From the IMG/VR virus record IMGVR_UViG_3300027804_000077, positions 1-56,046 of that record: 56,046 nt of DNA. One strand, written 5' to 3'. This stretch comes from a virus. Its lineage: Duplodnaviria > Caudoviricetes. A model generated the notes under the pieces. The model did no database searches. It had not been told where the DNA came from and saw nothing but the letters and a program-made list of their open reading frames with translations. Both the position numbers and the translations under genes were made by a program. Positions 9,050-50,356 of the stretch are shown piece by piece (position 1 is the stretch's first letter; each line of letters opens with the position of its first letter).

Positions 9050-9120
9050 CTGTAGTCCATGCTGTCTCCTCAGACTCACGACGAGTCTTTTCATCCCCGC
9101 CCTCCTGCGGGGATTTTTTT
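9050..9120 (+). ncRNA. Candidate small RNA with anti-SD/anti-start-codon seed
   Basis: TATACT at 9038-9043; seed TCCATGCTGTCTCCTC at 9056-9071; hairpin AGACTC-ACGAC-GAGTCT at 9072-9088; terminator whose loop is CCTCCT. Confidence 0.4.
9093..9120 (+). terminator. Intrinsic terminator between the convergent replication and late operons
   Basis: ATCCCCGC-CCTCCT-GCGGGGAT followed by a T run. Confidence 0.85.
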
Positions 9121-12100
9121 ACTCTTTAGCTCTCAGCTCTAAGAGTTCGCGTCGGTTCATTGGGTTGGCTATATACAACCCTTGGTCTACGGCACGTTCC
9201 TGCCTACGCCTAGCTTGATCCGACTGCATGATGGTTACAGGGAGGATTCGACGGTTGGGAAACTTACTGTTGAACTTATCAATATCTTCCTGAATATCAT
9301 CGGGGTCTTCGTCAGAAATACCCCGCCGCGCATAGACCGAACGCTTCAGCAGTTCTGTGCGCTCTTCTTCCCGTTCCTGTTCTAGCTTCTTAAGCTTAAA
9401 GTTCTCAGTTTGTTTCGCGGACACTTTGATTGGGGCGTACCCAATACTTTGCATGGCTATGTCCATCCAGTTCAAATCTTCTTGCGCTACAACCTCGTAG
9501 CCTTTTGGAGTCTTTACTCCTTCTTCGCTAAAGCGATACGCTTTCAGCGGTTGCCTGATGAACGCAGGCATCATGGTCTCGATAGCCCTCTCGGTTTGCC
9601 CTTCTTTGAACCTGTCGTACGCACGTTGGGCATTCTCAAACATACCGAAGCTTGGGCCGAGCAACCCTTTAAACTCCCAATCTTGGAAGAACAGATCGTT
9701 AAGTTTGACCCGCGAGTTAAAGTCTGCACCTGTTAGCCCAGTGACCGGACCCATAGCGACGTAGGTTGCTACATTTGCGCCAAAGTTTTCGGACAGCCAC
9801 TTCTTAAACCACAAATCAAATCCGTACTTGCGTATCTGGAAAGCTGCACTGTCTTCGTCATCGTCATCATCACCAAATGCACTTAACACCTTCTCGGCAA
9901 CGGTAGACATCACGGTGTACAACGGCATACCCGTCAGACCTGCAAACATACCCGTCATACCGAGCGTACCAAAGAAGCGCGTTGCAGCTTGCTTCCTAAT
10001 CGTAGGATCTGCGCCTTTGAACATTTGCAAGAAATTAGTCGTGAGATAGAACGCCGTGTTCTGTGAAAATTTCTTGAACTGGAATATGGTTCTGCCAACC
10101 GGCCCACGGAAGTATCTGGGTGTATCAAACATGGAGTAGTCGTACATCGCATCATGCGTCAGATCCAAAGCTTTTTTAGTAGCTTCATCATGCGACAAAC
10201 CTTGACTGCGTCCTAAGCGATAAGCAGCCATAGCCATCATCTCGCGGGGTAGTTGTTCCGTCATGGAGAACAACGTAGAGACAGCATCGGTTGCAGCCTG
10301 AACAGGCACTTTCAAAATGTTAGGGTTAGTAGCTTCCTGAGAAGGAGACTTGACGATATTGAGCAAGTCCATTGAGCGGTTGAATGAGAAAAGGTTGTCA
10401 GCCGCAAACTCATCGTAAGCCTTAATCTCATCAGCATTGGTCAACGCATTGCGTATGGAAGGCATAACATATTCAGTCTTACCATTAACCTTGCGTCGGA
10501 ACCCAACTTCCTTGTAGACATTCATAAACCGCACAAGCTCTTTGTGCACATCCTTTGCGCCACCAGGAGTCTTGCCATACTCAGCAAGCAGTGTGGGATA
10601 GCCAAACACAGGCAGCGAAGTCATGTTCGTCAGAGCAGACGAGATCGAACTCATATAGTAGAAGAAGTTAAGCGTCGATAGTCCGTTGGCTGCAAAGTTC
10701 AGGATAGAGTTTTCGTTCTTAGGATTAACAGCAGCGTCAAAGTCGCCTGCTACTTCTTCGATATAAGGACGGTACTTAGATGCGTCAGGGTCATCCTTGA
10801 TAGACTCTCTTGCTTCGTCAAGTGTGTTGACGATCTGGGGTTGGTACTCCATCTTGGCAAGTTGATTGGACATACGGAAACCCGCAGTGCCAAAGTTCCG
10901 TAGTGCATCTGCGCTAAAACCTGCTGTGTTTTTACGATGGATAAACTGTTTGCGGAAGCTTTTCTCTGGCAGCGTGAGCAGATACATCTGATAGATCTCG
11001 TCTTTGATCGATGCCTTATCAGTGTCGATGCCTAGCTTATCTACAGCAGCAAGAACTTCTTTTAGCTTCGTCGTATCAGCAAAGCTTTCTTCCATCATGT
11101 TCTTAAGCTGATCACCACGCTTGAGCGTACCGTCGGCGTACAAATCTTTCAGAGGCTTGCCCATCTCCTTAGCTCTACGGATGGCGAAGCGGTTGCGCTC
11201 TGAGGCAGACTCAAACATATAAAACTCCATGTCTTTGCCTTTGCCAACACGCAACCAGTTCTCTCCATATCTCATAAGAGGGAAGTAAGGCTTAGCAACT
11301 TTGTCCGACTCAAATTGTTTCTTGAGCAGATCCATGAACTTGGTTTTTTCCTCATCGGAGATCCCCATCATTTCAATGCGTTTATTCAAAAGATCTTTAT
11401 ACGTTTCATATTGCTTAGCGTAGTAATCACGTACATCGATATAAATCTTGCGCCCCGGTTCACCAAGCTTTTCCCATAGATCATCCAAGGTATCTGACTG
11501 CGGCGTAGATGCAAGACGATCTTTACCGGGGATGCTTGGGTCTATGCCGTTAACTGTAGAGAGGTGCATGATGGTGGCAAGCAACTGACTTTGTTCACGG
11601 TCGTTGCGTTGAAGCTTAAGCCACGGCTTCATAACATCTTTCATCTCATCGACATACTGCTGGCGCTTGGCGTTGAACTTCCGACCAAGATCGACCACAC
11701 GAGTAAGCGCAGGGATTTTGTCTTTAACAAGTTTTGCAAGTTGGCTAGGAGTAAATGCACCAAGAATATGTTTCCTAGCACCAGACATAGCACCTTCTGC
11801 AATAGCACCAGCAAGCTCTGCCTGACTAGATAGATCCATACCGTTAGCTATAGCTTGGTTCAGCGCAGATACAGATGGGCCTTGGCTACGAGGCGTATTG
11901 ATTACGTCGTTAGCATATTTGACTTGCACATCGGCAGCGGTCTGTACGTCTTTTTTCTGGGAGAGTATTTCTATTTTAGCCTGCGCGTCGGCAACGGAAG
12001 GCTCCAGTGACAAGAGCGTATCTGTTACTTCAATAAGGTTAGCAAGCGCAGACTCATCGTTTTTACTAAGCCCAAGTAGCTGTCTAATCGTAGCTACAAA

Positions 12101-15100
12101 AGTGCTCATGACGCTTTGCGTTTTGCCAAACTGCACTGTGCTTAAGAACTGCTGAAAGTCCCCATCAGTCATACCGTAGGTTAAAAACTCATACACATTG
12201 GTTAGAGCTTTACCTTTGGTGAACTTTTGATCTAAGCTCTTTACAAATTCTTTGTATGGATGACCATTAGGAAGCTTAGCCGCATCATCGGCTGCGTCCC
12301 GTGCAGCCGCCATTAACCGTACTAATTTACGATACGCAAGCGCCCTTGGGTCTGCGCTTCTAGGGTCAGCTTTTACAATCTGCTCACCTTCGTAGATTTT
12401 TACCGCAGTCCCTGCATGTAGTAGCTCGTGCAAAACAGTCTGGTTATTTACGCCTTGCCCTACCCCTGACAGACCGCTCCCTGCTACAACAATCATATCG
12501 TTAGTGGGTATGAACACCCCTCTAGCTTTTAGTTTCTTGAAATTATCAATAAGCCCTTGCTTAGACTTGTTAGAGACAATTACGAATTTTATATTCCCTA
12601 ACGCAGACACTAATTTTTGTGCCAAGGTGCGTTCAAACTTATTGCTCTTAGGATCTTTTGCAATAATCTGGGCAGCGTCTTTACCTGTCTTAGGCGCACC
12701 GGCTTCGATCTTTGGATTTAAGGCAGGGCTGGTTGACTGTAATTCCGTTTCTGAAATATCTGCCTGAGCAAGAGCACCAGGACCACCTTCTGGTTTTACG
12801 AACGTACGCTTCTTTACCTTAGTAGTAACGACAGGTGCAGGGCCAGTGGGAGCCTTGGGTGTGACTATGGGTTCTTCGCTAACAGCTTCTGTTTGCTCTA
12901 CAGGCTTAGTCTCTTCTTTACGGCGTTCAGCTCGCGCTATGATGCCCTTTTTAATATTGCTAGGACCACGCTCAAAATTACTCATAGCGAGATCACGGAT
13001 GCGAGTGTTTGCATACCTTGGATCAGTACCAAGGCGGTACAGCTCTTCCAAAACAGGGAGCACTCTCTTAGTTATATAGTCGTTAAGAGTTTCTGTTCTA
13101 GTTTCTGGATTACCAATGTTTGCAAACTGACCCTCAATACCTTTCATAAAAGTATCGTGGTACTGCTGCATGGAAGCTTTAGATTCGGGTCTTGGGCCAA
13201 GGAACAGATCCAACATCGTAGCCAAGCCGGGGCGGTCAGAACCTTTTAGCTTCTTAGTAGAAAGAATAATATTTTCAATTGCGTTAAGTTCCTCAGTACG
13301 CATCCCCGACTCAACAGCACGAGCTTCTTTTTCTTCCTCAGTCAGCTTAGGTTTCGGACCACGTTTAGGCGCAGGGCCAGTAGGCACAGCATCAGATCTA
13401 ACTTTTAGAAACGCATCTTTTAAGTTAGTGCCAAGAACTTCTTCCTCACCATTTACACGCCTAACCCACTTAGGCTTACGCCCTTCACCTACATTCGTAA
13501 TAGTAACGGTCTCTCCGTTTGAGAGCACAAGATCTTTTGTATTTTGGCCGTTTGTATTCTTGCCAGGATACTGATTAATAATTGTTACTTGAGGGGCTGC
13601 TGCTTTTGGTACACCGGCAGGTTTGGCTGCTGTGGCAAGTTTTGCCACTTTTGTTCCTTCAGCAGGCGCTGCTGCTCCTTCTTCTTTTGCTTGCTTGGTT
13701 TCAGTGGGCGTAGTGACACTGGGGATTTCCTTTGGGGGTTGAGTTTTTTCTTCTACTGCACCGGATGGTACTTCCTCTCCTCGTACAGTTGGTTCAGCAG
13801 GACGTGCAGGGCGTTCCACTCCACCGGCGACAGGTGGCTCAACTCCTCCGGTGGGTACTCCTCCGTCGGGTCGGCTAGGAATTGGAACGCTTTCTCCACC
13901 TCCTTGTTCGATAGCTTTAGCAGCATCTTCTGCCTCCTTTCCGGCTTCGGCTTGAATTTCTGCAAGTTCGGATAGAGCTTGGTCAGCCTCTTGGTCGTTT
14001 CGTTCCTCTTCCGCAGCCTGAGCAGCGGCTTTGATTTTGGCTTGATCAGGGGAATCTCCAGCAGCTATGTATTCGTCAGTAAGTTCATTAATCCTAGAAG
14101 TAAGCGCATCAACTTTAGTAGCAGCTTCCGCTACTTTTTGTTCTGGAGTTGCTTGCTCAGCTAACTTTTCTTGTGCTGCTTGAGTAGCAGCAGTTAATAC
14201 GTCACCAGCAGTAGCAGGTTCTTTAGCAAGCTCTTGCGTCCTAGCAGCAATGTCTTCTACATTTACCGCAGCGGCTTTCCCTTGAAGATCTTCTTTCTGC
14301 TTTGCTAGCTGCTCTGCATCAATCTTGGCTTGTGCTTCATCAATTGCAGAACGTTCTTCGGGAGTCTTTGCTTCCCTGCGTCGCTCAATGTATCGACCAG
14401 CAGGAGAAAGTGCGCCACCAAGAACAGCACCACCAATAAAACTTTCAACGTACTCTTTACGAGCATCAGCATCTGCAATGTTTAACCCAGCTTGTAGACG
14501 CTCTAAAAATTGTTGCCCTGTCTCAGTAGCACCTTCAACACCCGCAGCTTTGCCTGTAGCTAAAGAGTAATCAGCAAGTGTGCGACGGAACCCTTGCTCG
14601 GCAAAGTTCTTAGCTTGTTGTTCAGTGACTTCTTTACCAACAGACTTAAACAACCCACGCACTAGTGGGATAGCTTTCATACCAACAATATCTAGCGCAG
14701 TCTGTGGTATGGCAGCGGCAACGGCGCTACCTAAACTTGTTTGTTCAAGCCCCGCATTAGGATTAGTGCGCTTTACTTCGTCAAGCTGTCTCGCAAGATT
14801 AGTACCTGTGAACTGCGTAGCAGACACTAAACCAGTTGCGCCCAAAGTGGCTAATGTAGCGGCAGTACCCGTAACAGGAAGCGCAGCGGCACCCGCAGCC
14901 GCAGCAATAGGTGCAGCCATATAAGGTAATGAACCACCCAAAGTCTCTTTAAATTTTTGAAAAGGCGCTTCAGACCAACCCTTTTCAGTAGGTGTGAATA
15001 CCCTCTGGGCTTCTGCTTCGCGCTCTGCTTGATAACGCTCGGCTTCTTTAAGATCCATTAGTCCTGCTTTACCAGCAGCAAGCGCAAGCGATCCTTTGAG

Positions 15101-15361
15101 TGATTCATACCCTGCCTTAACAGCGGGGACAAACCCTTCCTTATCTTCAGGAGGAACTTCTAAGGGTACACCGTATTGTTTTTTGACAGCAGGAGCAGCA
15201 GTGCTTAACCCAAAACGCTGCCGTATGGCAGCTTTGGTAGCGTCATTAGCATCTACATAATTAGAATCCTGCGGAGCGTACTTATCAAAGATAGCTTTTT
15301 TTGTAGCAGGATTTGCGTTGATGTAGTTGGGGTCTTGCAGGATCTCCAGCAGTGTCGGCAT
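9119..15361 (-). CDS. Very large internal virion/ejection-type polyvalent protein (2080 aa) with zincin-like HExxH motif
   Basis: Last late gene; HELLH motif (~12416-12430) with downstream EF; Gly/Ala-rich hydrophobic N-terminal region; Pro/Glu/Lys linker; helical C-terminus. Confidence 0.75.
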   Translation of the reverse strand: MPTLLEILQDPNYINANPATKKAIFDKYAPQDSNYVDANDATKAAIRQRFGLSTAAPAVKKQYGVPLEVPPEDKEGFVPAVKAGYESLKGSLALAAGKAGLMDLKEAERYQAEREAEAQRVFTPTEKGWSEAPFQKFKETLGGSLPYMAAPIAAAAGAAALPVTGTAATLATLGATGLVSATQFTGTNLARQLDEVKRTNPNAGLEQTSLGSAVAAAIPQTALDIVGMKAIPLVRGLFKSVGKEVTEQQAKNFAEQGFRRTLADYSLATGKAAGVEGATETGQQFLERLQAGLNIADADARKEYVESFIGGAVLGGALSPAGRYIERRREAKTPEERSAIDEAQAKIDAEQLAKQKEDLQGKAAAVNVEDIAARTQELAKEPATAGDVLTAATQAAQEKLAEQATPEQKVAEAATKVDALTSRINELTDEYIAAGDSPDQAKIKAAAQAAEEERNDQEADQALSELAEIQAEAGKEAEDAAKAIEQGGGESVPIPSRPDGGVPTGGVEPPVAGGVERPARPAEPTVRGEEVPSGAVEEKTQPPKEIPSVTTPTETKQAKEEGAAAPAEGTKVAKLATAAKPAGVPKAAAPQVTIINQYPGKNTNGQNTKDLVLSNGETVTITNVGEGRKPKWVRRVNGEEEVLGTNLKDAFLKVRSDAVPTGPAPKRGPKPKLTEEEKEARAVESGMRTEELNAIENIILSTKKLKGSDRPGLATMLDLFLGPRPESKASMQQYHDTFMKGIEGQFANIGNPETRTETLNDYITKRVLPVLEELYRLGTDPRYANTRIRDLAMSNFERGPSNIKKGIIARAERRKEETKPVEQTEAVSEEPIVTPKAPTGPAPVVTTKVKKRTFVKPEGGPGALAQADISETELQSTSPALNPKIEAGAPKTGKDAAQIIAKDPKSNKFERTLAQKLVSALGNIKFVIVSNKSKQGLIDNFKKLKARGVFIPTNDMIVVAGSGLSGVGQGVNNQTVLHELLHAGTAVKIYEGEQIVKADPRSADPRALAYRKLVRLMAAARDAADDAAKLPNGHPYKEFVKSLDQKFTKGKALTNVYEFLTYGMTDGDFQQFLSTVQFGKTQSVMSTFVATIRQLLGLSKNDESALANLIEVTDTLLSLEPSVADAQAKIEILSQKKDVQTAADVQVKYANDVINTPRSQGPSVSALNQAIANGMDLSSQAELAGAIAEGAMSGARKHILGAFTPSQLAKLVKDKIPALTRVVDLGRKFNAKRQQYVDEMKDVMKPWLKLQRNDREQSQLLATIMHLSTVNGIDPSIPGKDRLASTPQSDTLDDLWEKLGEPGRKIYIDVRDYYAKQYETYKDLLNKRIEMMGISDEEKTKFMDLLKKQFESDKVAKPYFPLMRYGENWLRVGKGKDMEFYMFESASERNRFAIRRAKEMGKPLKDLYADGTLKRGDQLKNMMEESFADTTKLKEVLAAVDKLGIDTDKASIKDEIYQMYLLTLPEKSFRKQFIHRKNTAGFSADALRNFGTAGFRMSNQLAKMEYQPQIVNTLDEARESIKDDPDASKYRPYIEEVAGDFDAAVNPKNENSILNFAANGLSTLNFFYYMSSISSALTNMTSLPVFGYPTLLAEYGKTPGGAKDVHKELVRFMNVYKEVGFRRKVNGKTEYVMPSIRNALTNADEIKAYDEFAADNLFSFNRSMDLLNIVKSPSQEATNPNILKVPVQAATDAVSTLFSMTEQLPREMMAMAAYRLGRSQGLSHDEATKKALDLTHDAMYDYSMFDTPRYFRGPVGRTIFQFKKFSQNTAFYLTTNFLQMFKGADPTIRKQAATRFFGTLGMTGMFAGLTGMPLYTVMSTVAEKVLSAFGDDDDDEDSAAFQIRKYGFDLWFKKWLSENFGANVATYVAMGPVTGLTGADFNSRVKLNDLFFQDWEFKGLLGPSFGMFENAQRAYDRFKEGQTERAIETMMPAFIRQPLKAYRFSEEGVKTPKGYEVVAQEDLNWMDIAMQSIGYAPIKVSAKQTENFKLKKLEQEREEERTELLKRSVYARRGISDEDPDDIQEDIDKFNSKFPNRRILPVTIMQSDQARRRQERAVDQGLYIANPMNRRELLELRAKE

Positions 15362-43587: not shown

Positions 43588-43783
43588 TTTCAAATTCCTC
43601 ATATCGTTGCACAAGGTCTTGTACTTCCATCCTTGCACGGCGCAGACCTTGGATTACGCCGCACAAATTTCTATATTCAGCAAAGTCTTTACAGTTCCCT
43701 TCAGCCATTGCGTCACTTACTTCCCGCTCTCGTTCTTTGAGTTTGTTAAATAAGTGATCTAGCATTTGCCGCTCATGAGTCAT
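43580..43783 (-). CDS. Hypothetical protein (67 aa)
   Basis: DFAEYRNLCGVIQGL; coupled to the portal stop codon. Confidence 0.75.
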   Translation of the reverse strand: MTHERQMLDHLFNKLKEREREVSDAMAEGNCKDFAEYRNLCGVIQGLRRARMEVQDLVQRYEEFEND

Positions 43784-46164
43784 TAACCACCTCGTTTCAT
43801 CACAGATTTAAGGATGTCAGCTTGGATCTTTTTATCCTCACGCTTATCTTGGCTTTGCAGTCGGATGTTTTCCTTCTGAGCCTCAAGAGCGATCCGCTCA
43901 CGCTCGTTCTGTAGCCTACCCTGAGCCAGCGCAACGTCAGCTTGATCCTTAGCAGCTTTGCGTTGCTGCTCCATACCTTTGATTTGAAGCTCTTGTTGCT
44001 GCATCTGAACCAGCGGATCTGCTGCCATCTGTTGAGACTGTTGCTGTGCAGCTTGAGCTTGATGGATCTGTAGAACTTGTTGAGCTGCTTCTGCTACGTA
44101 CTTAGCCATAGCTAATTCTTCAGCTTCAGATATATCTTGCTCCGGCCCAGGCAATGGTGCACCCACACGCTGTTCAATCTCTTGACGGTACTGGAACCCT
44201 AAGTGCTCGGCAACGTGCGCCATCATCGCAGCTTGCATCTGCTGACCCATAGGACTTTGCCCAACCATCTGTGCAATCTTGGGATCTTGTATGAATGACA
44301 TATGCGTTGTGATATGCGCTTGATGATCCTGATAGATAAAGGCTTTTAGCGGCACACCCTTGAGTGCGTTCATGTTCTCAGTCACCGGATCTTTGGGCTT
44401 CTGGTCATCCGGCAGGGGTACTAGTTTGTCGGCGTTAGGAATACCCAGCACATCTAACATCTGCCTATGCAGACGTGGTAAGTCATATAACTGAGGCGCA
44501 CCTTGGGCTAGTTGTAAAGCGGCTTGATACTGCACAACCCGCTGAGCCATCGTCGAGGCGTTGGGATCAGACACAGGAATAACTTCAACAATGTCGTAGT
44601 CCTCAGCCTTAACCTGCGGTGTGCCATCCTGCGGCACGTAGCTGTAATCAGGTGAGGTGTACTCCCTGATAATTTCTTTGAGCAGCTTGAACTCTTCTTT
44701 CATCGCCGCATGGATGCGAGCCTGCACAGCACCCATTGTTTTTAACTGCCGCTCAAGCAGTGCCAGCGTCGTACCCACCGGAGCCTGACTCGACATATCG
44801 CTGATCTTCATATCAGCCATACCACTGAGCCGTCGTGCTTCTTCGGTGATTTGGTTTAGTAAGGCGAGGAGAACCTGACTGGGTTCTTTGTAAGGAAGCG
44901 GCAGAATGTTGTCTCTGATCGCACCCCCCGGTACGTCCACATCTCGCCATTCACCCGGAGCGATAGGGGTGTCATCGCCTTTGATCCGCAGCCCACGAGC
45001 CTTTAACCCACCGGGAAGATTAGATAGCGACCCTGCATCCACCAACTGACGTATCAGCATGGTGCCTGCCGTGGCGTAGCCACCGATAATGTGGATCAAC
45101 CCGAAGCCGTAAGCACCAAACCCAGGGATGTACATATAGTGTACAAAGTGCTGACGCGCACGTTTCTGAGGGTCGTCTTCTTTATAGTTACGCCGTATAG
45201 CCAAAACTTTGTTGGTATTTTTGTCGATAGTAATGACGTAGGGTAGTGGCAGTTCTTCCTCATACCCCGGCAAGTCATACTCGATATGCACCTCGCATAT
45301 CTGATACCGCTCATCTTTAGTCGGCTCTTGGCCTTCTTTCTGCGCCTTAGCTTTCTCAATATCGGTCTGACTGGCGTAAGGCTCACCAAGATCTACATCC
45401 CGATAAAACCCACTTACCTGTAACTTCTTAACGTCATTCTTAGTCTTACGCATGATGTGCGTAAGGCGGTCTGTACGTCTAATGTTTGTTACACCATAAG
45501 GAAGAATGACATCCTCGGCAGGTACATAGAACGAAACTTGGCGCTCTAACGATGGGTCGTAGTAGACCTTCTTAAATGACGAACCTGCCAGCGCAACACC
45601 CCATAACGCACGTTCGTGCTCTGACCGATACTCAGGCATCTTGTCAGTTAGCTGATAGTTCATATCAGCCTTCACCCGCTTACCTGCTTCTTCAATAGCA
45701 GGGGTAAACTGACCAATGATCTGCGTCTTTACAGGCCCACCTGCCGGAAATGTCTCCATGATGGATTCGCTTTGGAAGCGAATCGCAGATTCTGTAAGTA
45801 GTGTGGAGAACACCCCACAAGCACCATCCCAAGGCTCAGTTACCTCGTCATAACGTAGGCCCAGCACATCCAAGCCCTTAACATAGGTATCCGCCCAATC
45901 CTTACGCGAAGTAATGTCCGCTTCAACCATCTCCATCACATCGCTGGCAACTTTCTGTAAGTCACCTTCTTTCATGAACTCGGCTAGATTAGAGTCAAAC
46001 TCTTCTTCCTCGTTTTCACCCCCCGGCTCAATCTCAAGCTCAAGCCCACCTACACCAATCGTTACGGATTCAGGGTCTTCGATCTCAATCTCAATAGGTG
46101 CTTCTTCAAGCGCCAAGGCTTCAAGTCCTTCGGGCATCTCATACAGTGCTTTATCAATAGCCAT
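43783..46164 (-). CDS. Portal protein
   Basis: 793 aa directly after TerL; SRKDW, GSSFKKVYYD and YGFGLIH; Gln-rich C-terminal coiled coil as in P22-type portals. Confidence 0.85.
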   Translation of the reverse strand: MAIDKALYEMPEGLEALALEEAPIEIEIEDPESVTIGVGGLELEIEPGGENEEEEFDSNLAEFMKEGDLQKVASDVMEMVEADITSRKDWADTYVKGLDVLGLRYDEVTEPWDGACGVFSTLLTESAIRFQSESIMETFPAGGPVKTQIIGQFTPAIEEAGKRVKADMNYQLTDKMPEYRSEHERALWGVALAGSSFKKVYYDPSLERQVSFYVPAEDVILPYGVTNIRRTDRLTHIMRKTKNDVKKLQVSGFYRDVDLGEPYASQTDIEKAKAQKEGQEPTKDERYQICEVHIEYDLPGYEEELPLPYVITIDKNTNKVLAIRRNYKEDDPQKRARQHFVHYMYIPGFGAYGFGLIHIIGGYATAGTMLIRQLVDAGSLSNLPGGLKARGLRIKGDDTPIAPGEWRDVDVPGGAIRDNILPLPYKEPSQVLLALLNQITEEARRLSGMADMKISDMSSQAPVGTTLALLERQLKTMGAVQARIHAAMKEEFKLLKEIIREYTSPDYSYVPQDGTPQVKAEDYDIVEVIPVSDPNASTMAQRVVQYQAALQLAQGAPQLYDLPRLHRQMLDVLGIPNADKLVPLPDDQKPKDPVTENMNALKGVPLKAFIYQDHQAHITTHMSFIQDPKIAQMVGQSPMGQQMQAAMMAHVAEHLGFQYRQEIEQRVGAPLPGPEQDISEAEELAMAKYVAEAAQQVLQIHQAQAAQQQSQQMAADPLVQMQQQELQIKGMEQQRKAAKDQADVALAQGRLQNERERIALEAQKENIRLQSQDKREDKKIQADILKSVMKRGG

Positions 46165-46173
46165 GATTCATTC

Positions 46174-47712
46174 CTAACTTAAGTAGTACCCACGCTTAGC
46201 GCCACGGAACCCACGGAAGTATTGCAACTCATCAGGTTCATCTGTTGGAAGGCGCAAAAACCCGCCATTCCTAAACCTTGCTAATGCTAGCGTAGTTGCA
46301 TCCACATAGTCATCATGCTCGCCTGCTGGGAAAGCTGCAATCTCATCGATAAGTTCTTCTGCCCATCGAGTGTTTGGCACCCACACACGCCCCGACTGAA
46401 TGATGTCAGACACCGAATTGAGTCGAGTTATCTTGTCGTTGCCCTTGCTGGGGGTAAACTCTGACACTGGCACACCCATCCGACGCAACTCTTGGTAGAG
46501 CGAGATACCTGATACCTTCTTTTCCACGATTAATGCGTCAGGTTCATACTCTTTATGCAGTTCTAACACCTTCTTCTTTAGTTCATAGAACTCAAGTCGT
46601 GCTTTATAGGCATCTAAGAGGATGATGTTTGTCTCACCTTCCTCAGTTGTCCAGATACCCCACGTTGTACACGCAGAAAAGTCCGAACGATTAGTCGTTT
46701 CGTACGCCGTATCCCACGACTGAATAATGAAATCGCATCTTGGAGGATCATCTTTTTCCCATACCTTCCACCATTCGCGCTTAACGATGGCACCTTCTTC
46801 AGAAGTCGGCTGTTGCTGGTACTGAGCTTGCCATTTTGAGTTAGGAAGCTCCTCTTTTAGTGCAGAAAGCTCATCTAACGACCAAAATTCAGGCCAAAGT
46901 GGGTTACCAGAGGGCAAAATAGCAGGAAATTCGATCACTTCCCACTCATCACCCCCTCTTTGCAGCGAATTTTTGATAACTTGACCCGTTAAATCCCTCA
47001 AACCCCACCGAGTCATCACGATGACGATAGCTCCCCCCGGTTGCAGACGCTGTCTTGGGCCTGATGTGTACCACTCATAGACCTTATCGTAGATTTCTGG
47101 GTTGACTGCTGCCAGCGCAGCCTCTTGTTCCGAATGTGGGTCGTCAATAATTAACAGGTCCGCACCCTTACCTGTCACCGCACCACCTACGCCAATAGCA
47201 AAATATTCACCACCTTTGTTTGTATTCCATCGACCAGCAGCTTTTGAGTCAGCTTGCAGTCCTACACCAGGGAAAATATCTTTATAAACATCCTGATCAA
47301 CAAGGTTTCGCACCTTTCTACCAAACCCAACCGATAACTCTGCTGTATGCGCGGTCTGGATTACTTTTTTATGAGGGAACTTTCCCAAGAACCAAGCAGG
47401 TAGAAGGTAAGAAGCAAATTCAGACTTAGTATGACGAGGAGGCATATTAATAATAAGGCGTTTAACTTCCCCCCTAGCGACTCTTTCAAAAGCCGCAGCC
47501 ATTCGCACATGATGTCTACCATCCACAAATGTAGGCCAAACTCGTTTTACAAACTTAATAAACCGTTCCTTACATACTTCCTGACTTTTTAATTTCTCAA
47601 GTTTTTGTAATCGCAGATTTAAATCACGCAAATCACTTTCAGACAATCCTGAAATATTATTTAACAATGCAGATAAACTTGCATTATCTTGTGTAGGCTG
47701 TGAATTAATCAT
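46174..47712 (-). CDS. terL: Terminase large subunit
   Basis: NMPPRHTKS (Walker A), LLIIDDP (Walker B), VMTRW, YQQQP, SWDTA and HDDYVDA nuclease motifs. Confidence 0.95.
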   Translation of the reverse strand: MINSQPTQDNASLSALLNNISGLSESDLRDLNLRLQKLEKLKSQEVCKERFIKFVKRVWPTFVDGRHHVRMAAAFERVARGEVKRLIINMPPRHTKSEFASYLLPAWFLGKFPHKKVIQTAHTAELSVGFGRKVRNLVDQDVYKDIFPGVGLQADSKAAGRWNTNKGGEYFAIGVGGAVTGKGADLLIIDDPHSEQEAALAAVNPEIYDKVYEWYTSGPRQRLQPGGAIVIVMTRWGLRDLTGQVIKNSLQRGGDEWEVIEFPAILPSGNPLWPEFWSLDELSALKEELPNSKWQAQYQQQPTSEEGAIVKREWWKVWEKDDPPRCDFIIQSWDTAYETTNRSDFSACTTWGIWTTEEGETNIILLDAYKARLEFYELKKKVLELHKEYEPDALIVEKKVSGISLYQELRRMGVPVSEFTPSKGNDKITRLNSVSDIIQSGRVWVPNTRWAEELIDEIAAFPAGEHDDYVDATTLALARFRNGGFLRLPTDEPDELQYFRGFRGAKRGYYLS

Positions 47713-48325
47713 CGACAGGTTCAGTTATTAATTCAGCATCTAATTCTTTTAATAGGTTTGGTGTGGCTATACCCAACTCTTCATCTAAACTTTTTATTGG
47801 CACTATATCTACGTCAGTAGCGCCACCTACTAATAAGCGTTTAATACGTTCTTTAATCTCTGCTTCTAAGTCAGCAGAATTTTTATGGGTGACGGTTATC
47901 TCACTGCGCTCGGTAAATACACCAATGTCGCTGTGTTTACCTAATAACTCCAGAGCTTTTATTTCTATTTTAGTATCGCCACAGGTTGCAAGCTCTACAA
48001 GCTTAGCAGTAATAAACTGCCGCGCCTGCACAATATCTGCAAATACTGGAGAGTCGTACTTAGCAATAATCGTTCGCAGGGTTGCAGCAACCCCGCCGTT
48101 CATAAGTTCTTTTTTAGCTTTACGCGCAGGTACCCCTTTACCCGCCTGTCTAAATAACTCTTCGGCTTTGGCAGCGTCGTCGGGGTCCATCTCTAGAGGC
48201 ATCCCCAACTGATTTAGTAGCAGAGCCGTATCGCCTGCAACAACCATCTTTTCTTTTATGTGCTCAGGTTCCTCTGCGGAGAGGTCAAACGGCACGGGTT
48301 TATCTTTAGTTGGTTCTACGTTCAT
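47705..48325 (-). CDS. terS: Terminase small subunit (putative)
   Basis: Immediately upstream of TerL; IKALELLGK..DIGVFTER. Confidence 0.7.
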   Translation of the reverse strand: MNVEPTKDKPVPFDLSAEEPEHIKEKMVVAGDTALLLNQLGMPLEMDPDDAAKAEELFRQAGKGVPARKAKKELMNGGVAATLRTIIAKYDSPVFADIVQARQFITAKLVELATCGDTKIEIKALELLGKHSDIGVFTERSEITVTHKNSADLEAEIKERIKRLLVGGATDVDIVPIKSLDEELGIATPNLLKELDAELITEPVDD

Positions 48326-48362
48326 CGCGGGAATAGGGGCACCGAGATTGAGATAGCTGCTG

Positions 48363-48391
48363 ACTCTATATGCAAATAATAATTTTGTAAA
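48363..48391 (-). promoter_or_regulatory. Candidate late-operon promoter
   Basis: Minus strand TTTACA, 17 bp spacer, TAGAGT in an AT-rich patch upstream of terS. Confidence 0.45.
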
Positions 48392-48609
48392 GCAAAAGGA
48401 GGTTGGGACTCCTGACGGGGGGTATTTCTATATAGAAGGGTAGGGTCAGATTGTGGAAATTTTTGTAGGGGGTGGGGGTGTTTTTAAAACACATTATTGG
48501 ATACGCGGAACAGTATGTACTAGCGCGGCGGTGCGTCAAGTCTAGGTTTGGGGGGGTCGGGATAGGGTGGGTAATACCTTATACGTATTTTGTTATGGCT
48601 AGGGGCTAA

Positions 48610-48629
48610 TTGTGGTACAATGCAATCAA
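48610..48629 (+). promoter_or_regulatory. Early promoter 1 (extended -10)
   Basis: TTGTGGTACAATGCAATCAA; 18/20 identical to 50181-50200. Confidence 0.7.
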
Positions 48630-49022
48630 GCGAAGCGAAAGCCGAGCGATCATCGGGTTAGTCCTACGGGATTAGCAGGAAAGCGAAAGCCTACCGTAAC
48701 AGATAGCCTACTGGGTTATTTCAGCGGACTGGCAAAAGTAGCTAACCAACCGACAACCGTTCATTAAAAACTTGGAACGATCATGCCGCAAGGCGACTAG
48801 TGTGAGCATACCGCTAGTGATCCGCTGATGCCGTGCGAGAAACGGGCATTGATGCCGCTATCGGGCTAGAGCAGGAAACGGTAGCGAGGTTACCCTTTGC
48901 AAGCTTCCGACTAAAGCTTTCGGATCGTATCCGATTGCCCATAAGTCAGTAATGCAAAGGGTACACCAGTGAGCGTATTAATTTCTAGTACGTTCACCCG
49001 TGTAATTCTAACCTTCGGAGTT
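48628..49022 (+). ncRNA. Large structured RNA or leader of unknown class
   Basis: At least ten stems with G-U pairs, UNCG and GNRA tetraloops, and nested long-range helices (see findings). Confidence 0.7.
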
Positions 49023-49028
49023 TTCAAA

Positions 49029-49517
49029 ATGGAACTAATGAAATATACCGCTGAAATGCCTGTCGTTGATTTTGCCCCCGCTCAAGTTTTGGTGTCGGGC
49101 AAAACCCTTGCAGATAAGAAAATGAGTGTAGTAGAGCAAGCTTCGCACTTTACCCTTGCCGCTCTTGTAGCTGAAAAGGGCAAGCTTGGTGCAGCCGCTC
49201 GCAATGGCATGGCAATGGATGGATTGTGCAGGATCGCATCGGCTACGTTCAATGGTAACTATCGTCCGCTCGCCGAGTATATCTCAGCACTCACTGGGGA
49301 ATCGCTCACCATTTCTAATCGCGCCACATACGAAAGCTTGATTGATCGCTTTCAGGATCGCATCAATGATCTTAAGGACAAGGGTTTAACTTACAACAAA
49401 AAGCAGGGTGTTGTCGTTGATGGTGCAAAGCGCAAGTCTTACCTTAAGGTAATAGCCGCACTCGAAGCAATCGCAATTGCTACTGCTGAAGAGTTCGCTC
49501 GTCGTAACGCTGAGTGA
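49029..49517 (+). CDS. Hypothetical early protein (162 aa)
   Basis: GGAG RBS and ATG 49029; helical, Ala-rich. Confidence 0.75.
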   Translation: MELMKYTAEMPVVDFAPAQVLVSGKTLADKKMSVVEQASHFTLAALVAEKGKLGAAARNGMAMDGLCRIASATFNGNYRPLAEYISALTGESLTISNRATYESLIDRFQDRINDLKDKGLTYNKKQGVVVDGAKRKSYLKVIAALEAIAIATAEEFARRNAE

Positions 49518-49525
49518 GGATTACA

Positions 49526-49717
49526 ATGAACCACATAGTAAGAAAAGGATCAATGCCCAAGTATCAACCTACTGCTAACACTGTAAGACAATGGGAGCGC
49601 AGTGTGCATCCATCAAACGCTAGCCGAGGCTACGCATCAACGAGCGCAAGCGTGCCTGAGTTTGCGCGATCATTCGGGTTTCGTCCCTTCGGATTACGCG
49701 ACAGCAGGGTTCAGTAA
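49526..49717 (+). CDS. Hypothetical protein (63 aa)
   Basis: GAGGA RBS before ATG 49526. Confidence 0.55.
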   Translation: MNHIVRKGSMPKYQPTANTVRQWERSVHPSNASRGYASTSASVPEFARSFGFRPFGLRDSRVQ

Positions 49718-50180
49718 GAAAATTTGAGGTAATGTAAGGCGTAAGAAAAAACTTCTTACGCCGTTTTTCTTTTTAGAATCAAGCGTTTATCCCCCTATTG
49801 TAAGAAGTAAGACTTTTTTCGGGAAATTATGGGAGCGTGGGATCGCAAGCCTCTCAGCAAGTGTTATTTTCAACTGACTTATCAGCAAGAAAAGTCAGGC
49901 AATCCTTATATAATATAGTAAAACTATTTACTTACTTACACTACACTTCCAACTCCTTGATTTTGCACACAAAAATCGCGTAAGTCCACTTAGTTTTTTT
50001 ATAACGACTTTCTTACAAATAGGGTTTTTTCTTACGCCCCTTTTACATTGCCTTCTTACATTACAGTTTGAGTGTGCCAAAACCACTTACATTGTATTCA
50101 CCCCTGCCAAAACCCCTCAAAATCTCCCTAAAACCTCTTACATTGTATTCATACCCCAAACCTATCTATTTTCTCTTACG
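49714..50180. repeat. Iteron-like GTAAG/CTTAC array with dyad symmetry, putative replication origin
   Basis: About 15 GTAAG/CTTAC copies; 15-bp perfect inverted repeat 49738-49752 with 50024-50038; 15-bp direct repeat at 50086-50100 and 50137-50151; AT-rich core. Confidence 0.65.
49738..49774 (+). terminator. Hairpin with T tract, possible terminator
   Basis: GGCGTAAGAA-AAAAC-TTCTTACGCC-GTTTTTCTTTTT. Confidence 0.55.
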
Positions 50181-50200
50181 TTGTGGTATAATGTAATCAA
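50181..50200 (+). promoter_or_regulatory. Early promoter 2 (extended -10)
   Basis: TTGTGGTATAATGTAATCAA contains a perfect TGnTATAAT. Confidence 0.8.
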
Positions 50201-50224
50201 AAACAAGTAAGCAAAGGAGCAAGC

Positions 50225-50311
50225 ATGATGAGTAGTCTTATAGATTGGCTAGTAGCAGCAGTGTTCGGCATAGCCCTCGGCTGTGCCCTTTTCTTTGGGT
50301 TTTTCTTGTGA
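50225..50311 (+). CDS. 28-aa hydrophobic membrane peptide (below the ORF-track cutoff)
   Basis: AAGGAG RBS; MMSSLIDWLVAAVFGIALGCALFFGFFL. Confidence 0.65.
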   Translation: MMSSLIDWLVAAVFGIALGCALFFGFFL

Positions 50312-50356
50312 GGTGCAAGCAACCAGTTCCGAGAGCAAGGAGAGCGAGTAACGCTT

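What the first reader, a model, noticed from the sequence alone, without database searches (positions are those of the whole stretch)
48628..49022. ~400-nt densely folded RNA directly behind the first early promoter
Seen in sequence: between an extended -10 promoter (48610-48621) and the first early ATG (49029), most of the sequence can pair. Local hairpins are GTTAGTCC-TACG-GGATTAGC (48657-48676, cUACGg loop, two G-U pairs), AGATAGCCT/GGGTTATTT (48701-48721), CGTTC/GAACG (48758-48779), GCC-GCAA-GGC (48785-48794, GNRA), ACTAGTG/CGCTAGT (48796-48818), ATGCC/GGCAT (48828-48849), GTGAGCGTA/TACGTTCAC (48969-48997) and a cUUCGg hairpin on the RBS (49010-49022). Nested long-range helices are CTACCGT/ACGGTAG (48691-97 with 48878-84), TCAGCGGA/TCCGCTGA (48721-28 with 48821-28) and an 11-bp TACCCTTTGCA/TGCAAAGGGTA (48891-901 with 48953-63) that closes a multi-way junction. 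AAGCGAAAGCC occurs twice (48633, 48681). The G-U pairs and tetraloops work on the + strand, which points to RNA rather than DNA structure. I do not recognise it as tRNA, tmRNA, RNase P or a group I/II intron. Inference: an undescribed phage ncRNA or cis leader, such as an antiterminator, a decoy, or the RNA partner of the 162-aa protein downstream.
Basis: partly seen in the sequence, partly recalled or inferred. Interest (0 to 1): 0.85.

Follow-up and report, generated by a model that had tools for sequence, protein, structure and literature searches.

The report
Structured phage leader RNA with boxA
The 400 bases between the first early promoter and the first early gene of this uncultured freshwater phage encode a conserved, heavily folded RNA of no described family, and it carries a short motif like the one that phage lambda and ribosomal RNA operons use to make RNA polymerase ignore stop signals.

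Summary
Window 48627-49028 (+) is a non-coding, strand-specific, conserved structured RNA. On 15 distinct relatives, 32 of 57 modelled pairs in the 3' half and 13 of 45 in the 5' half keep pairing through changes on both sides. RNAfold z is -3.98. There is no Rfam 15 match.

- The CTACCGT/ACGGTAG long-range helix is refuted.
- TCAGCGGA/TCCGCTGA and CGTTC/GAACG show no covariation.
- The UUCG loop at the RBS occurs in only 4 of 17 sequences.

New here: the unpaired block 48759-48775 is the best match in 20 of 21 leaders to the published boxA consensus GYTCTTTAANA, at 9-10 of 11 positions. [quoted passage not shown] It is the best local match between clade-iii leaders and two of three clade-iv leaders that are otherwise unalignable with them.

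Best reading (about 0.5): a cis leader that loads host Nus factors for processive antitermination of the immediate-early operon, embedded in a new large RNA fold whose extra role is unknown. This makes it a new variant of a known kind. Function is inferred, not shown.

The parts
48613..48621 (+). Extended -10 promoter element TGGTACAAT (TGn + TAnnnT)
   Evidence: Read. In relatives the flanks diverge, but in clades i-ii TGnTAnnnT keeps a fixed 5-nt spacing to the start of conservation at CAAGC. Clade iii has TAAGGT at the same spacing but no TG. Not found by the two-hexamer scan. The TSS is inferred, not shown.
48627..49028 (+). Whole conserved leader RNA (~402 nt), non-coding
   Evidence: Conservation starts at 48627. 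All six frames have at least 2 stops in each of 17 relatives. z -3.98. No Rfam match.
48630..48647 (+). H1: GC/GC outer pairs around an invariant GC-GAAA-GC mini-hairpin (first copy of AAGCGAAAGC)
   Evidence: 4 pairs, 100% paired; one pair varies G-C/G-U; no both-sided change. Repeat confirmed.
48657..48676 (+). H2: 8-bp hairpin with cUACGg loop
   Evidence: 3 of 8 pairs compensatory, 91.7% paired.
48689..48733 (+). Composite stem: GCC/GGC, CCGT/GCGG and the 8-bp hairpin 48701-21 with loop UACUG (48709-13)
   Evidence: Pair 48691/48731 is C-G in 7 sequences, U-A in 7 and broken in 1. In L023-25 the stem sequence is different but the UACUG loop is kept. The same hairpin loop is the best local match between clade-iv L016 and clade i.
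48734..48758 (+). Unpaired A/C-rich linker, with GCAAAAGTAGC (48732-42, its first two bases in the preceding stem) invariant in clades i-ii
   Evidence: Invariant columns; no supported pairing. Its role is unknown.
48759..48775 (+). boxA-spacer-like motif GTTCATTAAAAACTTGG
   Evidence: 10 of 11 to GYTCTTTAANA, and the unique best site in the leader. The consensus comes from PMC5725501. See the full report for variants.
48776..48826 (+). Three-way junction: closing helix AACGATCA/TGATC-CGCT, GCC-GNRA-GGC hairpin (48785-94) and hairpin 48797-48817
   Evidence: Closing helix 90.8% paired, 2 of 8 pairs compensatory. By eye clade iii keeps it as CCG/CGG (sequences). GNRA is kept in 15 of 15.
48827..48850 (+). 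Hairpin A, conserved loop GCGAGAA and a bulged G
   Evidence: 99.1% paired, 2 of 8 pairs compensatory.
48856..48886 (+). Hairpin B, 8 bp, with conserved 15-nt loop GGCTAGAGCAGGAAA
   Evidence: 7 of 8 pairs compensatory. AGAGCA in the loop is invariant across three clades.
48892..48962 (+). Domain C: 10-bp long-range helix closing a bent stem (GCT/AGT, GACT/AGTC, GC/GC, TCGGAT/ATCCGA)
   Evidence: Helices 3-5: 15 of 25 pairs compensatory, 97-99% paired.
48963..49003 (+). Hairpin D: ACAC/GTGT plus a 12-bp stem
   Evidence: 8 of 16 pairs compensatory, 99.2% paired. No T-run follows, so it is not a canonical terminator.
49012..49020 (+). CC..GG mini-hairpin overlapping the Shine-Dalgarno GGAG (49017-20)
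   Evidence: 2 pairs in RNAalifold. The loop sequence is not conserved. Weak.
49029..49517 (+). First early gene, 162 aa, unknown helical protein; a relative stands directly after every leader found
   Evidence: No Pfam or PHROG family. AF2 pLDDT 86 with no fold match.
49527..49717 (+). Second gene, 63 aa, basic (10 K/R against 3 D/E, counted by eye); a similar small basic ORF follows gp1 in clade iii
   Evidence: Read. No family found for the 49514-49717 frame. Its role as a lambda-N-like factor is inference only.
49738..49772 (+). Terminator-like 10-bp hairpin plus T-run that ends the first transcription unit
   Evidence: kept in L005. The stem is itself an inverted TCTTACG repeat, so it may also be a DNA operator.

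Best explanation
Window 48627-49028 is transcribed rightward from the extended -10 promoter at 48613-21 as the ~400-nt untranslated leader of the immediate-early operon. That operon is the 162-aa gene, a 63-aa basic gene, and a terminator at 49738-72.

The leader folds into about ten helices: H1, H2, the UACUG hairpin stem, a three-way junction, hairpins A and B, domain C and hairpin D. Between the 5' hairpins and the three-way junction lies a stretch with no supported pairing that is a boxA-spacer element.

Proposed mechanism (inferred): as the nascent RNA emerges, host NusB-S10 binds boxA and NusA binds the spacer. Together with NusG they convert the transcribing RNA polymerase into a termination-resistant form, as at lambda nut sites and rrn leaders. 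The long untranslated leader is then not cut short by Rho, and polymerase can read through the terminator at 49738-72 into the downstream early and replication genes.

The surrounding conserved fold is new. It probably adds binding sites for a phage factor (gp1 or gp2) or for polymerase, and/or protects the RNA.

Shown: the RNA structure, its strand, its conservation, the motif, and gene linkage. Inferred: the transcription start, Nus binding, and antitermination.
For: Structure. 97.4% of 851 cells pair and 32 of 57 pairs are compensatory in the 3' half, against at most 7 of 57 when the partners are slid. In the 5' half the figures are 93.5% and 13 of 45. RNAalifold on 8 sequences gave 24 of 119 compensatory pairs.

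Strand. + is favoured.

Non-coding.

Linkage. Every homologue of the RNA found lies directly upstream of a homologue of the 162-aa gene. Model R1 hit 18 of 22 sources at 143-220 bits. It gave 0 convincing hits in 39 other loci.

boxA.
- In 20 of 21 leaders the best match to GYTCTTTAANA is the same conserved block, at +122 to +141 from the inferred start, scoring 9-10 of 11. Controls: E. coli rrnH scores 11 of 11 and lambda nutR 9 of 11, each at its true boxA.
- L005, L007, L029 and L033 share UCUUUAACAAU with rrn boxA-spacer.
- L008-type leaders share UUAAAAAUU with nutL.
- L017 shares UCUUACACA..UUC with nutR (against Table 1 of PMC2724277).
- The block is the top local alignment between clade-iv and clade-iii leaders, which are otherwise unalignable: 0 of 100 shuffles reach the score for L016 and for L031.

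Gene order. Promoter, boxA leader, small genes, then an intergenic terminator parallels lambda PL-nutL-N-tL1 (recalled).
Against: - A match with at most one mismatch to the consensus is common. There are 14 in the window against 8.9 expected, and 8 of 100 shuffles reach 14. Per leader, 5-8 of 300 shuffles reach 10 of 11, and 43-96 of 300 reach 9 of 11. The case therefore rests on conservation and position, not on the match itself.
- The window's own copy has A where the consensus has the first T of TTT (CAUUA, not CUUUA).
- The spacer AUU that NusA needs is present in only 11 of 20 leaders, and not in the window.
- The predicted unpaired probability of the block is only modestly above the leader mean: 0.52 against 0.40 over 18 leaders.
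- In L030 the best consensus match is at another site.
- The host is unknown, so its boxA is unknown. TerL points to phages of Proteobacteria and Cyanobacteria, while one source labels a homologue's contig Actinobacteria.
- boxA needs about 12 nt, so this reading does not explain about 390 nt of conserved fold.
- No boxC and no N homologue were identified.
- An RNA-library contig begins at 48574, 53 nt upstream of the inferred start.
- The terminator stem is also a repeat of a DNA motif.
Confidence: 0.5

Rival explanations
1. The RNA is the operator or partner of the proteins it precedes. Gp1 (162 aa) or the small basic gp2 binds conserved loops (UACUG, GCGAGAA, GGCUAGAGCAGGAAA, the two GCGAAAGC) to autoregulate translation or stability, or to form a ribonucleoprotein. 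In this reading boxA is incidental or auxiliary.
For: Linkage of leader and gene is strict in all loci found. Many loop sequences are more conserved than their stems. A sequence motif occurs twice. The CC/GG pairing touches the Shine-Dalgarno sequence.
Against: Gp1 has no RNA-binding family or fold match. Clade-iv genes, at 44-46% identity to gp1, carry a leader that model R1 does not recognise. No test of binding was possible with these tools.
Confidence: 0.2
2. It is a metabolite- or signal-sensing leader (riboswitch-like or attenuator) that uses alternative pairings. The invariant AGCGGA and TCCGCT segments can pair with each other, or each with a local partner, to switch early expression.
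For: TCAGCGGA/TCCGCTGA is 95% pairable, and both strands are invariant in the 15 clade i-ii sequences while also belonging to competing local helices that contain covarying pairs. Multi-helix junctions and conserved unpaired nucleotides are typical of ligand pockets (established knowledge).
Against: The alternative helix has no compensatory change. Read by eye, its 5' strand is not kept in clade iii. There is no terminator or clear sequestering helix as an expression platform. There is no Rfam riboswitch match.
Confidence: 0.1
3. It is an abundant early RNA that acts in trans. It could be a decoy that titrates NusB-S10 (or another host factor) away from host rRNA operons, or a processed stable non-coding RNA with its own activity.
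For: It is the first sequence transcribed from the inferred first early promoter. It carries a boxA-like site. Competition for a host factor by boxA transcripts is the title of a reference seen in the reference list of PMC2724277 (the paper itself was not read). Contigs from RNA libraries of 4 of 4 laid runs (4 studies) cover 193-308 nt of the leader.
Against: Depths are low (2-7.5). One run also covers the DNA upstream of the promoter, so DNA carry-over is not excluded. No 3' end signal separates the RNA from the gene.
Confidence: 0.1
4. The inverted repeats act at the DNA level, as a packaging site, origin or operator array next to the terminase genes, and not as RNA.
For: The region lies in the divergent gap beside the putative small terminase gene. 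The - strand also folds better than shuffles, z -2.63.
Against: 87 G-U cells, several of them invariant, would become A-C mismatches on the other strand (97.4% against 88.2%). Compensatory changes keep the pairing but not the sequence. The conserved tetraloops UACG and GNRA are RNA motifs.
Confidence: 0.03

Closest known systems
Lambda nutL / nutR (boxA-spacer-boxB) and the N leader
   Same: It lies just downstream of an early promoter. It has an unpaired boxA-spacer motif whose variants equal the nutL and nutR forms over 9 nt. A GNRA-capped hairpin follows, small genes come next, and then a terminator.
   Different: It is about 400 nt against about 35 nt. The hairpin is GCC-GNRA-GGC inside a three-way junction, 18 nt after boxA, and not a 15-nt pentaloop boxB 8-9 nt after it. 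No N homologue is recognisable. The host is not known to be enteric. The RNase III-regulated lambda N leader is recalled, not checked.
rrn operon leader antiterminator (boxB-boxA-boxC) of E. coli
   Same: UCUUUAACAAU is identical in E. coli rrnH and in leaders L005, L007, L029 and L033. A hairpin lies upstream of boxA. The transcript is long and untranslated. According to passages of PMC2724277, rrn boxA-spacer needs no phage protein.
   Different: It is not upstream of rRNA. No boxC was recognised. The window's own copy reads CAUUA. The surrounding helices have no counterpart in the rrnH leader as read.
boxA in mRNA 5' UTRs such as suhB
   Same: A boxA in the leader of a protein-coding gene recruits Nus factors (passages of PMC5725501).
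   Different: The genome search in that paper took only boxA within 50 nt of a start codon. Here boxA is about 260 nt upstream of the ATG.
HK022 put RNAs (recalled, not checked with a tool)
   Same: They are cis-acting structured RNAs directly behind early promoters that make polymerase termination-resistant.
   Different: put is about 70 nt, has two stem-loops and needs no boxA or Nus factors (recalled). No model was available here for comparison.
Large structured non-coding RNAs of phages and metagenomes (GOLLD, ROOL and the like; recalled, held in Rfam)
   Same: Large size, many covarying helices, and occurrence in phages of uncultured aquatic bacteria.
   Different: No Rfam model matches. 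This RNA is a promoter-proximal leader tied to one gene family.

Membership tests
Any Rfam 15 family | Covariance-model score at or above the family's gathering score | tested here: not met
   0 matches in the whole window and 0 in six relatives' loci. At E<=10 in 48300-49200 the only matches are two weak ones at 48310-48553, outside the RNA.
nut / rrn-type antitermination site | boxA sequence (consensus GYTCTTTAANA; rrn UGCUCUUUA, lambda CGCUCUUA) | tested here: met
   9-10 of 11 at one conserved site in 20 of 21 leaders; the window scores 10 of 11 at 48759-69. Caveat: such matches are common by chance.
nut / rrn-type antitermination site | boxA is single-stranded in the RNA | tested here: inconclusive
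Predicted unpaired probability is only 0.52 against a leader mean of 0.40.
nut / rrn-type antitermination site | Spacer with AUU, bound by NusA | tested here: inconclusive
   AUU follows boxA in 11 of 20 leaders. It is absent in the window (ACUU) and in 8 others (AAUC). The requirement is taken from passages of PMC2724277.
Lambdoid nut site | boxB hairpin with a GNRA-like pentaloop 8-9 nt after boxA, bound by an arginine-rich N protein | tested here: inconclusive
   A GCC-GNRA-GGC hairpin lies 18 nt downstream, with GNRA kept in 15 of 15. The geometry differs. Gp2 is small and basic, but no family was found.
nut / rrn-type antitermination site | Lies between a promoter and terminators that must be read through | tested here: met
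   It starts 6 nt after the extended -10 element. An intergenic hairpin plus T-run at 49738-72 follows and is kept in L005. No such hairpin was seen at the equivalent place in clade iv or clade iii (read).
nut / rrn-type antitermination site | Nus-factor-dependent read-through of terminators | not testable with these tools
   This needs genetics or in vitro transcription.
rrn leader | boxC and position upstream of 16S rRNA | tested here: not met
   No rRNA was found in the window. No conserved GUGUGGG-like block was seen in the alignments.
Riboswitch | Ligand pocket plus an expression platform with mutually exclusive helices | tested here: inconclusive
   An alternative 8-bp pairing exists but shows no covariation. 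No terminator or sequestering helix is supported.

The most novel reading that the evidence does not exclude
The whole 400-nt fold is a self-sufficient RNA device that rides on the polymerase that makes it. A boxA module loads host Nus factors, and the flanking conserved domains (the two GAAA mini-hairpins, the UACUG loop, the 15-nt AGAGCA loop and bent domain C) fold into a compact tertiary structure. That structure would contact polymerase or hold the Nus complex. The result would be protein-independent, rrn-like antitermination for a non-lambdoid phage, and at the same time it would drain Nus factors from host rRNA synthesis. It would be a large natural RNA that fuses put-like and nut-like mechanisms.
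Probability: 0.15. Interest if true: 0.85.

Novelty: new variant of a known kind. Interest (0 to 1): 0.62.

Why it matters
Large natural RNAs with this much covariation support are rare, and each one characterised has taught new RNA biology.

This RNA sits at the first point of contact between an uncultured aquatic phage and host transcription, and it contains what looks like the universal Nus-factor loading signal. If that is confirmed, boxA-based antitermination would extend beyond lambdoid phages and rRNA operons to abundant environmental phages. It would also give a natural example of boxA embedded in a complex fold.

It is a compact, testable object (one promoter, one RNA, one terminator) for asking how much RNA structure contributes to processive antitermination. 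The family model and alignment could also be added to RNA family databases to improve the annotation of viromes.

Tried and rejected
DNA similarity to 50,697 phage records found no match for 48300-49600. Tblastn with the 162-aa protein also found none.

The exact pattern ATAGCCTACTGGGTTAT returned only the 7 contigs already known.

A looser two-gap pattern returned 10 viral stretches (1 new, L035) and 38 bacterial/archaeal genome stretches. Model R1 confirmed none of these 39: the best scored 16.3 bits at E 0.026. No host or prophage copy was found in that way.

Model R1 (3' half) gave no hit in the clade-iv leaders L016, L017, L030 and L031. Six weak minus-strand hits were only the palindromic hairpin D.

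For the 162-aa protein, Foldseek against PDB gave a best E of 1.3 and against BFVD 0.49. VIA-align wide gave a best Z of 6.0, below the tool's stated noise level for helical models. The ESM Atlas gave only unnamed viral clusters, best score 0.89.

Phage DSL-LC04, the nearest cultured TerL at 57.5% identity, is not syntenic at this locus.

Terminator-like hits at 50267-87 and 50407-24 lie inside reading frames as read, and were dropped as probable chance.

Metatranscriptomes: 24 runs hold 0.10-0.32 of the sampled words, and 17 of them are on record as RNA. In the 4 runs laid, no contig covered 48913-49097. Nothing can be concluded from that gap, and the contigs cannot show starts, ends or strand.

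The exact pattern TCTNTAACAAT in three records found the clade-iii leader site and one site inside the gp1 coding sequence of L017's contig. It found none in DSL-LC04. L024 and L031 were not held.

mafft-qinsi is not installed.

Supplementary files of papers were not opened. Supplementary Table 2 of PMC5725501, which lists the boxA positions, may bear on which mismatches are tolerated.

Rows dropped before the counts:
- L006 (identical to L005), L021 and L028 (identical to L007) and L026 (identical to L024), as found.
- L034 (same as L033 here).
- L009-L015 (the same contigs as L002-L008).
- L032 (only 123 nt upstream).
- L035 (not a member).
- Clade iii was left out of the 5'-half count, because its 5' part does not align.
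Full report
CONTEXT. The window is a 56,046-bp virus record, estimated 89% complete. A minus-strand structural block ends with the portal gene (43783-46164), the large terminase gene (46174-47712) and a 206-aa ORF (47705-48325) in the small-terminase position. A plus-strand early and replication block starts at 49029. It runs through an AAA ATPase, a DUF2201/VWA protein, family-A DNA polymerase, a PD-(D/E)XK nuclease, an SNF2 helicase and a DUF927 primase. The finding lies in the divergent gap. The nearest cultured TerL proteins are phage DSL-LC04 (57.5% identity), phage 023Pt_psg01 (53.4%) and Pelagibacter phages HTVC027P and HTVC023P (about 50%). The host is unknown. G+C is 47.9% and there are no tRNA genes.

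RELATIVES. Relatives of the 162-aa protein were found as follows:
- on 7 viral contigs, with 2 more found using a profile;
- on 15 metagenome contigs;
- on 2 further viral contigs found with a DNA pattern taken from the RNA.

After removing identical rows, 17 sequences fall into three clades. Clade i is window-like. Clade ii has 86-90% protein identity. Clade iii has about 49% identity and higher G+C. A fourth group (L016, L017, L031 and the more distant L030; 44-46% identity) also has a 340-440-nt leader. A covariance model of the 3' half (R1) scored 143-220 bits on all members of clades i-iii, but found nothing in clade iv and nothing convincing in 39 pattern-matched loci from viral and bacterial genomes. 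In every case the RNA lies directly upstream of the gene. Just upstream of the conserved start the flanks diverge, but in clades i-ii a TGnTAnnnT element keeps a fixed 5-nt spacing to the start (clade iii has TAAGGT at the same spacing, without the TG). This is the basis for placing the transcription start at about 48627. The start is inferred.

STRUCTURE, 3' HALF. On the Infernal alignment of the 3' half (15 distinct rows), 97.4% of 851 cells pair. 32 of 57 pairs show changes on both sides, and 0 of 500 shuffles reach this. Sliding the partners by 1-3 columns gives 2-7 such pairs and 27-37% pairing. That alignment was fitted to the structure I supplied, which leans towards it. The unfitted MAFFT alignment already showed the same pattern, as did RNAalifold on 8 sequences (24 of 119 pairs compensatory).

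STRUCTURE, 5' HALF. On a plain MAFFT alignment of 15 clade i-ii sequences, 93.5% of 674 cells pair and 13 of 45 pairs are compensatory, against 1-3 when slid. One measure, further pair types, did not exceed the shuffles: 492 of 500 shuffles reached it. G-U pairs (87 cells, several of them invariant) mean that the opposite strand would pair less well: 88.2% against 97.4%, and 87.4% against 93.5%. The sequences are mosaics in which hairpin variants recombine while each variant keeps its own pairing.

ARCHITECTURE (window coordinates).
- H1, 48630-47, around GC-GAAA-GC.
- H2, 48657-76, loop UACG.
- A composite stem, 48689-733, ending in hairpin 48701-21 with loop UACUG.
- An unpaired A/C-rich linker.
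- The boxA-like block, 48759-75.
- A three-way junction, 48776-826. Its closing helix is AACGATCA/TGATC-CGCT. It holds GCC-GNRA-GGC (48785-94) and hairpin 48797-817.
- Hairpin A, 48827-50, loop GCGAGAA.
- Hairpin B, 48856-86, with the 15-nt loop GGCTAGAGCAGGAAA.
- Domain C, 48892-962.
- Hairpin D, 48963-49003.
- Then the Shine-Dalgarno GGAG (49017-20) and the ATG at 49029.

Six of the eight local hairpins and the 11-bp long-range helix are confirmed. The rest do not hold:
- CTACCGT/ACGGTAG is refuted. Only 70 of 105 cells pair and there is no compensation. Its 3' strand belongs to hairpin B, where 7 of 8 pairs covary.
- TCAGCGGA/TCCGCTGA can pair (95%) but has no compensatory change, and it competes with helices that contain covarying pairs. 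It may be an alternative conformer or nothing.
- CGTTC/GAACG has its central pair broken in 11 of 15 sequences.
- The UUCG loop on the RBS is in 4 of 17 sequences.

THE BOXA LEAD. Against the published gammaproteobacterial boxA consensus GYTCTTTAANA (PMC5725501, passages), the single best site in 20 of 21 leaders, including three clade-iv leaders, is this block. It scores 9-10 of 11 and lies at +122 to +141 from the inferred start. As controls, the same scan finds the true boxA in the E. coli rrnH leader (11 of 11) and in lambda nutR (9 of 11).

The variants are telling.
- L005, L007, L029 and L033 read UCUUUAACAAU, identical over 11 nt to rrnH.
- L008-type leaders read UUAAAAAUU, as in the nutL boxA-spacer.
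- L017 reads UCUUACACA-A-UUC, as in the nutR boxA-spacer.

The nutL and nutR sequences come from Table 1 of PMC2724277 (passages). A B. subtilis consensus, AUGAUCUUUGAAA, is also close (PMC13753749, passages).

This block is the top local alignment between clade-iv leaders L016 and L031 and the clade-iii leader (0 of 100 shuffles reach it; for L017 it is 26 of 100). A second shared island is the UACUG hairpin, between L016 and clade i (2-3 of 100). In L016 the two islands stand in the opposite order.

WEAKNESSES OF THE BOXA LEAD.
- One-mismatch matches are common: 14 in the window against 8.9 expected.
- Per-leader shuffle counts are unimpressive for the 9-of-11 sites: 43-96 of 300.
- The window's own copy has CAUUA.
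- The NusA-binding AUU is present in only 11 of 20 leaders.
- Predicted accessibility is only modestly raised, 0.52 against 0.40.
- L030's best site is elsewhere.
- The host's own boxA is unknown.

The identification therefore rests on conservation, position and the pattern of variants, and not on the match score.

OPERON LOGIC. Downstream of the leader come the 162-aa gene and a 63-aa basic ORF. Next is an intergenic 10-bp hairpin with a T-run (49738-72), which is kept in L005. After that lies about 450 nt of non-coding DNA full of TCTTAC(A/G) repeats, ending in a second extended -10 promoter near 50186-96. The order promoter, boxA leader, small gene(s), terminator parallels lambda PL-nutL-N-tL1 (recalled). 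According to passages of PMC2724277, rrn-type boxA-spacer suppresses Rho-dependent termination without a phage protein, whereas lambda nut needs N and boxB. Either mode could apply here. The small basic gp2 is a candidate N-like factor by inference only. No comparable hairpin was found after the gene in clade iv or clade iii (read), which weakens the terminator argument outside clade i.

WHAT REMAINS UNEXPLAINED. boxA accounts for about 12-17 nt. About 385 nt of covarying helices with conserved loops (two GAAA, GNRA, UACG, UACUG, GCGAGAA, the AGAGCA loop, and the CCAUA/AAA internal loop of domain C) need another reason. Possible reasons are sites for gp1 or gp2, contacts with polymerase, protection of a long untranslated RNA from Rho and nucleases, RNase III processing sites, and a trans function. 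None was testable here. The 162-aa protein gave a confident helical model (pLDDT 86) without any informative match.

EXPRESSION. 24 public runs hold part of the stretch, and 17 of them are recorded as RNA. In the 4 runs laid (4 studies), contigs cover 193-308 nt of the leader at low depth. One run also covers 48300-48482. One contig starts at 48574 with adapter letters before it, upstream of the inferred start. This is compatible with transcription, but does not prove it or the start site.

NOVELTY AND VERDICT. The RNA family is undescribed in Rfam 15. My four literature searches listed no paper on a large structured boxA-containing leader in non-lambdoid phages. These searches cover open-access text only and do not prove absence. 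I file it as a new variant of a known kind: a nut/rrn-like antitermination leader embedded in a new, large RNA fold.

Confidence that it is a real, conserved, strand-specific structured RNA is about 0.95.

Noticed in passing
window 49775-50225; L016 3440-3760; L034 (minus strand) about 40-340: After the first operon lies a ~450-nt non-coding stretch with at least 8 copies of TCTTAC(A/G) or its inverse TGTAAGA. One inverted pair forms the stem of the terminator-like hairpin at 49738-62. The stretch ends in an extended -10 TGTGGTATAAT before a 28-aa hydrophobic ORF (50226-50312). Clade iv has the same motif array. Clade iii has a different repeated motif (TAATTAGACA) at the same place. This looks like an operator, iteron or promoter array whose specificity changes between clades.
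   Followed up: partly
window 49527-49717: A 63-aa basic ORF directly follows the 162-aa gene. A similar small basic ORF follows in clade iii (L034), and possibly in clade iv (L016 3768-3953). No family is known. It is a candidate regulatory or N-like protein.
   Followed up: partly
window 48399-48423; also upstream regions of L016, L017 and L030: A GGGACTCCT...GGGGGG motif, which forms a short hairpin followed by T-rich sequence, recurs in the terminase-proximal intergenic region of all clades. It could be a packaging or regulatory site, or the terminator or promoter region of the divergent small-terminase gene.
   Followed up: no
window 9119-15361 (-): A 2080-aa protein with an LPD39 domain, a DarB-like antirestriction region and a weak match to virion RNA polymerase (phrog_2206, E 1.5e-17). 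It may be an injected polyvalent protein.
   Followed up: no
window 48674-82 and 48870-78: AGCAGGAAA occurs twice: once after hairpin H2 and once inside the conserved loop of hairpin B. This is a second repeated motif besides AAGCGAAAGC.
   Followed up: no
L016 2654-2668 and 2705-2719, against window 48700-48714 and 48759-48775: The clade-iv leader shares the boxA block and the UACUG-loop hairpin with the window's RNA, but in the opposite order. This suggests the leaders are built from shuffled modules.
   Followed up: partly
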